Source of the DNA: a virus
Lineage: Duplodnaviria; Heunggongvirae; Uroviricota; Caudoviricetes
IMG/VR virus record: IMGVR_UViG_2728369607_000007
Coordinates: 1-50,260 of that record
DNA: 50,260 nucleotides
Strand: one strand, 5' to 3'
The notes under the pieces were generated by a model, which worked only from the letters and a program-made list of their open reading frames with translations, did not search any database and was not told the origin of the DNA. Below are positions 32,452 to 32,652 of this stretch, in pieces. The translations under genes were made by a program, and so were the position numbers. Positions within the stretch are counted from its first letter, which is position 1; each line of letters begins with the position of its first letter.

Positions 32452-32652
32452 GTTAAGCATCCACAGGCTGGTATCTGCAACCGATTATAACGGATGCTTA
32501 ACGTAATGCGTGAAGTATGGACATATTTTATCAATTAGTGTTTTTTGCCGTTTCATAATGTTTCAGGTTGTGCGTTATGTTTTTGATTATAAACAGATTT
32601 GTGATTTTTCTTGTTCCAGCTTGTTTCACGTTGTAGCCCTTTGTGCAACGAT

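What the first reader, a model, noticed from the sequence alone, without database searches (positions are those of the whole stretch)
32611..32640. Recurring TGTT(C/T)CACGTTGT motif at attL, attR and upstream of the capsid operon
Related sequences (TTGTTTCACGTTGTAGC at 32627, TTGTTCCACGTTGTTCA at 41085, TTGTTCCACGTTGTTTCA at 48663) sit beside both att cores and also 230 bp upstream of the major capsid gene. A shared site at the integration junctions and the head-operon promoter region suggests one factor couples excision and late gene expression, or a remnant of past recombination.
Basis: seen in the sequence. Interest (0 to 1): 0.4.

Follow-up and report, generated by a model that had tools for sequence, protein, structure and literature searches.

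The report
Phased TTGT repeat arrays in a satellite island
The recurring motif is real: it belongs to arrays of 10-bp-spaced TTGT repeats in a capsid-encoding phage satellite, most likely landing pads for the island's small regulator AlpA, which would link excision to capsid-gene expression in the way already known for satellite phage P4.

Summary
The motif is real and non-random: 6 copies with at most 1 mismatch against 0.22 expected. It is one unit plus the start of the next in head-to-tail arrays of TTGTNNNNNN units with an exact 10-bp period.

Comparison with the empty K-12 site puts the crossover core at GGACATATTT (32519-28 and 48792-801), overlapping the phoQ stop codon. Both repeat types lie inside the island's arms.

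The island is a capsid-forming PICI. It belongs to the EcCICFT073 family and matches an O157:H7 cf-PICI at the same site.

Across about 120 related islands:
- The 12-bp pairs change together with the integrase arm-binding domain, at both arms, so they are Int arm-type sites, as annotated in P4.
- The TTGT arrays do not follow Int. They track the AlpA class at the arms and upstream of alpA.
- The copy upstream of the capsid gene is present in 35/35 islands with an HK97 packaging module and 0/58 others, whatever the AlpA class.

Best reading (about 0.55): AlpA, a homologue of P4 Vis, binds these arrays to drive excision, its own promoter and the capsid operon. This is a known design, newly mapped here. 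No binding was tested.

The parts
32519..32528 (.). True left att core (GGACATATTT), the attL junction with roxA-side host DNA
   Evidence: Comparison of attL and attR with the K-12 attB (gtatgGGCATATTTattcatc)
32558..32587 (+). Weak phased array in the attL arm (ATGTTTCAGG TTGTGCGTT ATGTTTTTGA)
   Evidence: conserved in relatives
32611..32650 (+). Phased TTGT array, attL arm, 4 units (TTGTTCCAGC TTGTTTCACG TTGTAGCCCT TTGTGCAACG).
   Evidence: identical in islands with a different Int arm domain
32654..32677 (+). Tandem 12-bp pair GGTGTAGTTAAT x2. Predicted Int arm-type sites (proximal arm), not the att core.
   Evidence: covaries with the Int arm-binding domain; same layout as the P4 'attP arm sequence repeat' pairs
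32700..33929 (+). Tyrosine integrase with a P4-type arm DNA-binding domain
   Evidence: Pfam PF13356 and PF00589
33972..34021 (-). Strongest phased array, 5 units on the minus strand (TTGTTCGTGA TTGTGTCACG TTGTTGCACA TTGTTTCACG TTGTATCTGT), between int and alpA
   Evidence: TTGT invariant in 90/90 units of 18 distinct variants while the other positions vary
34228..34270 (-). Weaker, degenerate phased array overlapping the promoter-like site just upstream of alpA (inferred)
   Evidence: Read from the sequence; promoter-like site at 34214-34242; the equivalent site in EcCICFT073 scores 21 bits
34304..34492 (+). alpA: 62-aa AlpA/Vis-family HTH protein, the predicted binder of the TTGT arrays
   Evidence: Pfam PF05930, E=5e-18; 3 residues different from EcCICFT073 AlpA; P4 Vis is in the same family
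41033..41058 (+). Intrinsic terminator-like hairpin plus T run immediately upstream of the internal block
41062..41103 (+). Internal block: TTTGTAAATTAT followed by 3 phased units (TTGTTCGTGG TTGTTCCACG TTGTTCACTG), at the 5' boundary of the HK97 packaging module
   Evidence: conserved with unrelated DNA on both sides; present in 35/35 islands with an HK97 capsid, 231-257 bp upstream of the capsid ATG, and in 0/58 others
41094..41121 (+). Inferred weak promoter (-35 TTGTTC, 16-bp spacer, -10 TATTTT) overlapping the third unit
   Evidence: Read from the sequence. The consensus scan found no strong promoter here. TATTTTA is kept in a diverged leader variant. This is an inference.
41314..47655 (+). 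Packaging operon downstream of the array: HK97 capsid, S78 protease, portal, HNH, TerS, TerL
   Evidence: Pfam
48652..48681 (+). Phased array, attR arm, 3 units (TTGTGTCTAT TTGTTCCACG TTGTTTCATA)
   Evidence: conserved in relatives
48695..48718 (+). Tandem 12-bp pair GGTGTAGTTAAT GGTGTAGTCAAT. Predicted Int arm-type sites (distal arm).
   Evidence: changes in step with the proximal pair and the Int arm domain
48792..48801 (.). True right att core (GGACATATTT); its last two bases overlap the phoQ stop codon (48800-48802)

Best explanation
The window carries a 16.3-kb capsid-forming phage-inducible chromosomal island (cf-PICI) inserted at GGACATATTT between roxA and phoQ. It has two distinct families of short repeats.

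(B) Tandem 12-bp pairs (GGTGTAGTTAAT x2) lie about 142 bp on the int side and about 90 bp on the far side of the core. These are the arm-type sites of the P4-like integrase.

Arrays lie directly next to each B pair in both att arms, between int and alpA, and at the 5' edge of the capsid/packaging operon.

Inferred mechanism: when the helper phage switches on alpA, the 62-aa AlpA protein (a Vis/Xis-like helix-turn-helix protein) binds cooperatively along these arrays. It would then do three things:
- At attL and attR it bends the DNA and helps Int assemble the excisive complex.
- Upstream of alpA it produces the known positive autoregulation.
- Just after two terminators and overlapping a weak promoter, it turns on the capsid operon.

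What is shown: the anatomy, the conservation, and the covariation of B with Int and of A with AlpA class. What is inferred: that AlpA binds the arrays, and the effect of binding on transcription.
For: 1. The arrays are real, phased and specific to the island.

2. All four positions are conserved in 68 islands with AlpA at least 89% identical. In 18 distinct int-alpA variants, TTGT is invariant in 90/90 units while the other positions vary, and one variant differs by exactly one 10-bp unit.

3. B follows the Int arm domain. NLSVRHS..GLL goes with GGTGTAGT(T/C)AAT, NLSVKYLTSGKL with GGTGTAGTCACT, and GLEIKHSKGGKL with TGTGTGGTCAGT, whatever the AlpA class. Between the window and L042 the divergent patch covers only the B pair and the first ~40 Int codons. 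In the distal arm, within the 140 bp that span the A array and the B pair, the three substitutions inside the B units are the only differences inside either repeat element, and the adjacent A arrays are 100% identical.

4. The P4 record annotates the same layout of tandem 12-bp 'attP arm sequence repeats'.

5. In the arms and upstream of alpA, the units are TTGTTYC in AlpA class 'SRSCRYRLEK' and TTGTTCG in class 'RTTRYE', each with two different Int types.

6. EcCICFT073 belongs to the same family and has the same arrays at attL, between int and alpA, and at attR. In it, AlpA activates PalpA but not Pint, and alpA overexpression gives excision and replication (PMC6092414).

7. alpA overexpression is used to make cf-PICI EcCIEDL933 reproduce. 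An O157:H7 cf-PICI at the same site has the identical internal block.

8. AlpA and P4 Vis are both PF05930, and Vis is annotated as excisionase and transcriptional regulator. RDF sites are typically direct repeats one helix turn apart (PMC7498355 abstract).

9. No other Pfam-recognisable DNA-binding protein was found among the island ORFs scanned.
Against: No binding, footprint or reporter data exist for these sequences.

The capsid-upstream array does not covary with AlpA class. The same block, including the TTGTTCCACG unit, occurs in class-T islands and simply travels with the HK97 module.

Non-cf relatives (EcCICFT073, L001, L172) have no array upstream of their packaging genes.

The class difference in units amounts to roughly one position. 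It could reflect shared descent of the int-alpA module rather than specificity.

The strongest array lies about 280-340 bp upstream of alpA, which is far for simple activation.

In the Vibrio satellite PICMI, AlpA acts as an excisionase without changing transcription (PMC10803314).

Classical RDFs usually bind one arm only. Here arrays sit in both arms.
Confidence: 0.55

Rival explanations
1. The arrays are bound by some other factor: a helper-phage protein (for example the still unidentified inducer of alpA, or a phage excisionase/Cox-like protein), a host nucleoid protein, or an unannotated small island protein. AlpA would then act elsewhere.
For: Helper phages induce alpA transcription through an unidentified factor (PMC6092414). 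The strongest array lies upstream of alpA. The internal block is independent of AlpA class. Several small conserved ORFs of unknown function lie near alpA, namely 34736-34939, 34997-35176 and 35682-35900, whose counterpart in related islands is annotated YlcI/YnfO family.
Against: AlpA alone, without a phage, triggers excision, autoactivation and cf-PICI reproduction. The arm and PalpA units differ between AlpA classes. The arrays have the geometry of RDF sites and abut the Int arm sites. A single host or phage factor would not explain class-specific units.
Confidence: 0.15
2. The capsid-upstream copy is a relic or module-junction sequence left by past recombination, for example a former att arm or a linker that favours exchange of packaging modules. 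It would have no regulatory role, and only the att-arm and alpA-upstream arrays would be functional.
For: The block sits exactly at the boundary where upstream DNA differs between lineages, and it always accompanies the HK97 module. It equals the attR array plus one extra unit, and both begin TATTTGTTC. In the window type it is followed by GGCATATTTTA, which resembles the att core.
Against: The block is retained in 35/35 HK97-module islands, with unrelated flanks on both sides in at least three lineages and the TTGT phase intact. It always has the same orientation and lies 231-257 bp from the capsid ATG. It lies after terminators and overlaps or precedes promoter-like hexamers. The core-like 11-mer is absent from the other leader type, and what is conserved there is TATTTTA, which fits a -10 element. 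No B pair accompanies it.
Confidence: 0.12
3. The TTGT arrays are additional arm-type sites for the integrase, and Int itself links recombination to gene expression.
For: The arrays lie in both att arms, as arm-type sites do, and Int carries an arm DNA-binding domain.
Against: The arrays stay identical when the Int arm domain and both B pairs are swapped. The arrays also occur 1.4 kb and 8.5 kb from the core, at gene starts. The B pairs already match the P4 arm-repeat layout. A 10-bp filament-like array of 3-6 units is typical of RDFs.
Confidence: 0.06

Closest known systems
Satellite phage P4: Int arm repeats plus Vis (ORF88), an excisionase and regulator of late promoters
   Same: Int has the same type of arm DNA-binding domain. 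Tandem 12-bp arm repeats lie next to the int start and on the far arm at similar distances from the core: P4 about 134/75 bp, here about 142/90 bp. Vis and AlpA are both PF05930, and Vis is annotated as both excisionase and transcriptional regulator.
   Different: The repeat sequences differ. P4 has no capsid genes. Here arrays flank both arm pairs and one precedes a capsid operon.
Coliphage 186 Apl and P2 Cox (dual-purpose recombination directionality factors)
   Same: One small protein binds direct repeats spaced one helical turn apart, both at att and at promoters, and so couples excision to a transcriptional switch (PMC7498355 abstract).
   Different: Apl and Cox repress or flip lysogenic/lytic promoters, whereas AlpA is an activator in EcCICFT073. 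The protein families differ. The att sites of Apl and Cox are on one arm (own knowledge).
EcCICFT073 and the O157:H7 cf-PICI at roxA-phoQ (probably EcCIEDL933): AlpA as master activator
   Same: Same integration site, same Int family, AlpA differing by 1-3 residues, and identical arm and int-alpA arrays. AlpA is required for excision and activates its own promoter (PMC6092414).
   Different: The papers read here define no AlpA binding site. EcCICFT073 lacks the capsid-upstream block.
Doubled motif tgTGTATTGCantgTGTATTGCa of helper-embedded PICIs (PMC10111431)
   Same: A tandem 12-bp doubled motif in two co-oriented copies at fixed distances on either side of the attP centre (81 and 132 bp). 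This corresponds to the B pairs here.
   Different: That paper left the binder open (Int arm domains, AlpA or unknown) and called the motif unique to HE-PICIs. Here analogous pairs occur in ordinary PICIs and cf-PICIs, and they covary with the Int arm domain.
Lambda Xis sites X1, X1.5, X2 next to Int arm site P2
   Same: A head-to-tail array of winged-helix protein sites abuts an Int arm-type site (own knowledge).
   Different: In lambda the sites are in one arm only, and Xis has no known promoter-activating role.

Membership tests
RDF / transcription-factor operator arrays (P4 Vis, 186 Apl, P2 Cox type) | Direct repeats spaced one DNA helical turn apart, several in a row | tested here: met
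   Exact 10-bp period with 3-5 units per array. TTGT invariant in 90/90 units. Length polymorphism is in steps of 10 bp.
RDF / transcription-factor operator arrays (P4 Vis, 186 Apl, P2 Cox type) | Sites lie within an att arm next to integrase arm-type sites | tested here: met
   In both arms the last well-matching unit of the array (last of three at attR, second of four at attL) ends about 13-20 bp before the B pair, and the fourth attL TTGT unit ends 3 bp before it.
RDF / transcription-factor operator arrays (P4 Vis, 186 Apl, P2 Cox type) | Further copies at promoters that the same protein controls | tested here: inconclusive
   Arrays lie upstream of alpA (autoactivated by AlpA in EcCICFT073, PMC6092414) and upstream of the capsid operon. 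The promoters and their dependence on the arrays were not measured.
RDF / transcription-factor operator arrays (P4 Vis, 186 Apl, P2 Cox type) | The element encodes a small HTH/winged-helix RDF | tested here: met
   AlpA is 62 aa and matches PF05930 at E=5e-18. P4 Vis is in the same family.
RDF / transcription-factor operator arrays (P4 Vis, 186 Apl, P2 Cox type) | The protein physically binds the repeats | not testable with these tools
   This needs gel-shift, footprinting or ChIP. The only indirect support is that unit type tracks AlpA class at the arms and PalpA.
Integrase arm-type sites (P4-like tyrosine integrase) | Sequence covaries with the Int arm-binding domain, concordantly on both arms | tested here: not met
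   The TTGT arrays are identical across Int arm-domain types. The GGTGTAGTTAAT pairs do meet this test.
   K-12 attB has no such sequence. The junctions are at GGACATATTT 32519-28 and 48792-801.
Capsid-forming PICI (cf-PICI) | int, alpA and replication genes, plus its own HK97 capsid, protease, portal, HNH, TerS and TerL; no tail genes; about 10-20 kb; a specific att site | tested here: met
   Pfam hits. The island is 16.3 kb between the att cores. An O157:H7 cf-PICI at the same site has the same layout.
Q-like / Pseudomonas AlpA antiterminator loading site | A regulator with an N-terminal segment that enters the RNA exit channel (DNA-contact residues at positions 128-142) and a binding element between -35 and -10 | tested here: not met
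   The island's AlpA is only 62 aa, essentially the HTH alone. The P. aeruginosa protein's features are from PMC9371919.
PhoP box (considered because phoPQ is adjacent) | (T/G)GTTTA direct repeat with an 11-bp period (consensus from own knowledge) | tested here: not met
   The units are TTGTTYC with a 10-bp period. The same arrays occur in islands at cspD-clpS and rcnR-thiM.

The most novel reading that the evidence does not exclude
The capsid-upstream block may be a portable, 'universal' AlpA-responsive promoter cassette. It contains both unit types (TTGTTCG, as in class-T islands, and TTGTTCC, as in class-W islands), so the HK97 packaging module could be swapped between satellites with different AlpA alleles and still be switched on.

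Alternatively, the arrays may be the docking sites of the still unidentified helper-phage inducer of Gram-negative PICIs, for example a phage excisionase-like protein, as P2 Cox does at the P4 PLL promoter.
Probability: 0.15. Interest if true: 0.6.

Novelty: new member of a known kind. Interest (0 to 1): 0.4.

Why it matters
AlpA is described as the master switch of Gram-negative phage satellites, yet none of the papers read here defines where it binds. The arrays mapped here give concrete, mutable targets at four places: both att arms, the alpA upstream region and the capsid operon. They allow a direct test of how one 62-aa protein triggers excision, its own amplification and capsid production.

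The covariation of the 12-bp pairs with the integrase arm domain also answers a question left open for helper-embedded PICIs, namely whether Int, AlpA or something else binds the doubled motif. It also corrects the island's boundaries.

The overall design is not new. It repeats the P4 Vis, 186 Apl and P2 Cox paradigm.

Tried and rejected
- The scan of one-genome-per-species contigs with AlpA gave only 3 loci and was of little use.
- A third AlpA-like class ('LANSTRWKLEK', in 50-60 kb prophages) showed no exactly phased 5-mer arrays near its gene, so it gave no third covariation point.
- Literature searches for the repeat sequences returned only unrelated papers. The only PDB relative (8c3t, 'AlpA family phage regulatory protein') has no paper in the library.
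- I considered and rejected the Pseudomonas AlpA antiterminator model, because that protein has DNA-contact residues at positions 128-142 and an N-terminal RNAP-binding segment, whereas this one is 62 aa.
- I rejected a PhoP box (wrong period and consensus; the arrays also occur at other loci).
- I rejected replication iterons, because the replication genes differ between islands (RepA helicase, primase, DUF927) while the arrays stay the same.
- I rejected a cos/pac site, because the block is upstream of the capsid gene and not near HNH/terS.
- The core-like GGCATATTTTA after the internal array is probably a -10 element. It is not conserved in the other leader type, and TATTTTA is what persists.
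- A clean claim that the motif changes with AlpA had to be toned down. EcCICFT073 and other class-W arrays also contain TTGTTCG units, and the internal block is shared between classes.

Full report
**1. Observation**

The three sequences are present: 32621-32637, 41084-41100 and 48662-48679. TGTTYCACGTTGT with at most one mismatch occurs six times in the 50,260-bp window against 0.22 expected, and 0 of 100 shuffles reach six. The extra copies are at 32559(+), 33978(-) and 33998(-).

Reading the flanks shows that the 13-mer is one 10-bp unit plus the start of the next. All copies sit in head-to-tail arrays of TTGTNNNNNN units with an exact 10-bp period:
- 32611-32650: 4 units
- 33972-34021: 5 units, minus strand
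- 41074-41103: 3 units
- 48652-48681: 3 units
- 32558-32587: a weaker array
- about 34228-34270: a degenerate array just upstream of alpA

An unbiased search for any 4-mer recurring at least four times at exactly 10 bp finds only three places in the whole window. Two are these arrays and the third is a GTGAC array at 48248. A position-weight scan for three phased units finds four arrays of at least 18 bits, all inside the island, and none in 20 shuffles. In a 50-kb stretch of CFT073 it hits only EcCICFT073.

**2. Where the att sites really are**

The window's 31330-32460(-) is roxA and 48800-50260(-) is phoQ. In K-12 these genes are 75 bp apart. The empty site reads gtgaagtatgGGCATATTTattcatc. 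The window reads gtgaagtatgGACATATTTtatcaatt on the left and ataaaagGACATATTTattcatc on the right. The crossover core is therefore GGACATATTT at 32519-32528 and 48792-48801. It overlaps the phoQ stop codon by two bases.

Both repeat families are thus arm features of attL and attR.

**3. What the element is**

Between the cores lie the following genes:
- a tyrosine integrase with a P4-type arm DNA-binding domain
- a 62-aa AlpA-family protein
- a RepA-type helicase and SSB
- an HK97 capsid, S78 protease, portal, HNH, TerS and TerL

No tail genes are present. This is a capsid-forming PICI.

EcCICFT073 occupies the same site in CFT073. Its Int arm-binding domain (first 100 residues) differs from the window's at two positions, and its AlpA differs by three residues. 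O157:H7 strains carry a cf-PICI there with the same architecture and AlpA one residue different. It is probably EcCIEDL933, although I did not check the EDL933 genome itself.

**4. Comparative evidence: are the repeats conserved?**

I fetched 68 IMG/VR loci with AlpA 89-100% identical. I also fetched about 50 loci of a second AlpA class and several annotated E. coli islands.

In the first class the motif recurs at the same four relative positions: the attL arm, about 285-330 bp upstream of alpA on the opposite strand, an internal plus-strand site, and the attR arm.

In 18 distinct variants of the int-alpA spacer, TTGT is invariant in 90 of 90 units. The remaining six positions carry 0.4-1.1 bits each and the flanks vary. 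One variant has exactly one extra 10-bp unit. This is the signature of selection on a phased protein-binding array.

**5. Who binds what**

The 12-bp pairs covary with the integrase arm-binding domain:
- Int 'NLSVRHS..GLL' goes with GGTGTAGT(T/C)AAT, in islands of either AlpA class.
- Int 'NLSVKYLTSGKL' goes with GGTGTAGTCACT.
- Int 'GLEIKHSKGGKL' goes with TGTGTGGTCAGT.

There are no exceptions apart from one chimeric island (L076).

An alignment of the window with L042 shows a divergent patch (62-70% identity) confined to the proximal pair plus the first ~40 Int codons. This patch is flanked by 93-100% identity. More than 10 kb away in the distal arm, the 140 bp spanning the A array and the B pair differ at only a handful of positions. 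The three that fall inside either repeat element are all within the 12-bp units. The adjacent TTGT arrays are unchanged.

The P4 record annotates the same layout: tandem 12-bp 'attP arm sequence repeats' next to the int start and on the far arm. A doubled 12-bp motif at 81/132 bp from the attP centre was reported for helper-embedded PICIs, with its binder left open (PMC10111431).

The TTGT arrays differ between AlpA classes in the arms and upstream of alpA. They read TTGTTYC with AlpA 'SRSCRYRLEK' and TTGTTCG with 'RTTRYE'. Each class is seen with two different Int types. This is suggestive only. The difference is essentially one position, and class-W arrays also contain some TTGTTCG units.

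**6. The capsid-upstream copy**

The block TTTGTAAATTAT + TTGTTCGTGG TTGTTCCA(C/G)G TTGTTC... is conserved while the DNA on both sides is unrelated in at least three lineages. It is present in 35 of 35 islands with an HK97-type capsid, always 231-257 bp upstream of the capsid ATG. It is absent from 58 of 58 islands with other packaging modules, irrespective of AlpA class. It therefore belongs to the packaging module and does not covary with AlpA. It contains both unit types.

In the window it follows a terminator-like hairpin at 41033-41050; a second, identical hairpin lies at 40679-40696. Its third unit overlaps a weak -35/-10 pair (TTGTTC, 16-bp spacer, TATTTT), which I inferred. In the other leader type a good TTTACA, 16-bp spacer, TATGTT promoter lies 13 bp downstream.

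The full block plus leader occurs in 358 of 5426 complete E. coli genomes.

**7. Link to experiments**

In EcCICFT073, AlpA activates the alpA promoter but not Pint. It is required for transfer, and when overexpressed without a phage it causes excision and replication (PMC6092414). An alpA-overexpressing strain is used to make cf-PICI EcCIEDL933 reproduce for particle purification (bioRxiv 10.1101/2025.02.11.637232). In a Vibrio satellite, AlpA is sufficient for excision and resembles TorI/Xis, but it does not change transcription there (PMC10803314).

P4 Vis is in the same Pfam family and is annotated as excisionase and transcriptional regulator. RDF sites are typically direct repeats one helical turn apart, and 186 Apl uses them both at att and at promoters (PMC7498355).

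None of the papers read defines an AlpA site in a PICI, and the repeat sequences do not appear in the searchable literature.

**8. Mechanism proposed**

Helper-induced AlpA binds cooperatively along the phased arrays. Next to the Int arm sites on both arms it would shape the excisive complex. Upstream of alpA it would give positive feedback. At the packaging module it would activate a weak promoter placed after terminators that end the replication operon.

The anatomy, conservation and covariation are shown. Binding and its effects are inferred. My confidence in the whole statement is about 0.55.

The rivals are:
- another binder, such as a helper-phage inducer, a host protein or a small unannotated ORF (0.15)
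- the internal copy being a functionless recombination relic (0.12)
- Int binding the arrays (0.06)

Chance is excluded.

**9. Comparison and novelty**

This works like P4 Vis, 186 Apl and P2 Cox: one small protein, phased direct repeats, and sites both at att and at promoters. It is a new member of that known kind. The specific contributions are:
- corrected att boundaries
- separation of the two repeat families
- assignment of the doubled 12-bp motif to the Int arm domain
- a mapped candidate AlpA regulon, including a capsid-operon cassette specific to HK97-type cf-PICIs

Interest is moderate (0.4). The result is useful and directly testable for satellite biology, but it is not surprising in principle.

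Noticed in passing
window 36183-36368 (+): Rfam matches above the gathering score to isrK (36183-36259, 66 bits) and C4 antisense RNA (36281-36368, 77.6 bits). They lie inside the Icd-like/Ash region at the start of the rightward operon. This looks like a P1/P7/P4-style C4-icd immunity module in a PICI.
   Followed up: no
window 41125-41313 (+): The ~190-nt leader between the internal array and the capsid ATG folds unusually stably (-74 kcal/mol, z = -5.3). It ends in a 7-bp hairpin plus U7 immediately before the start codon, which recalls a lambdoid 6S/tR' attenuator. The other leader type (L075/L069) has no such T run.
   Followed up: partly
window 40679-40696 and 41033-41050 (+): Two identical terminator-like hairpins (AGCCGGAGCAATCCGGCT plus a T run) bracket a 100-aa ORF with no Pfam match (40720-41022). 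This may be an inserted cassette between the replication and packaging modules.
   Followed up: no
window 47940-48300: A second kind of phased array, GTGAC x4 at a 10-bp period (48248-48290), is shared with 8 relatives. There are also two to three ~45-bp direct repeats (CGGCGGTAACTGTTTGATATTCCCGATAACGCAAAA...) at about 47995 and 48177, with similar sequence in L074 and L075. Their function is unknown; they may be a cos or ori element.
   Followed up: partly
L076 (E. coli A34), 13100-28000: A chimeric island. The left end and proximal arm pair are of the cspD/yljB type (GGTGTAGTCAAT), but the right end, with its TGTGTGGTCAGT pair, abuts thiM. This implies recombination or inversion between two PICIs at different chromosomal sites. 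Its rep gene is a frameshifted pseudogene.
   Followed up: no
L042 and relatives compared with window 32661-32820 and 48780-48810: Islands whose Int differs mainly in the arm-binding patch (type 'KYLTSGKL') have a different right-hand flank and core, so they use another attB. Smaller divergent patches occur at Int codons ~120-190. The determinants of target choice were not analysed.
   Followed up: no
window 32530-32545 and equivalents in L062, L074, L075: The sequence TTATCAATTAGTGTTTTTTG right next to the left core is conserved across both AlpA classes and several integration sites. It may be a core-type Int site or an IHF-like site.
   Followed up: no
window 1-28600: By analogy with the near-identical strain 2015C-3905 (L001), the DNA left of potB/potA (27722-29705) is probably the tail end of a lambdoid prophage. 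Such a prophage is a candidate helper next to the satellite. I did not check this in the window itself.
   Followed up: no
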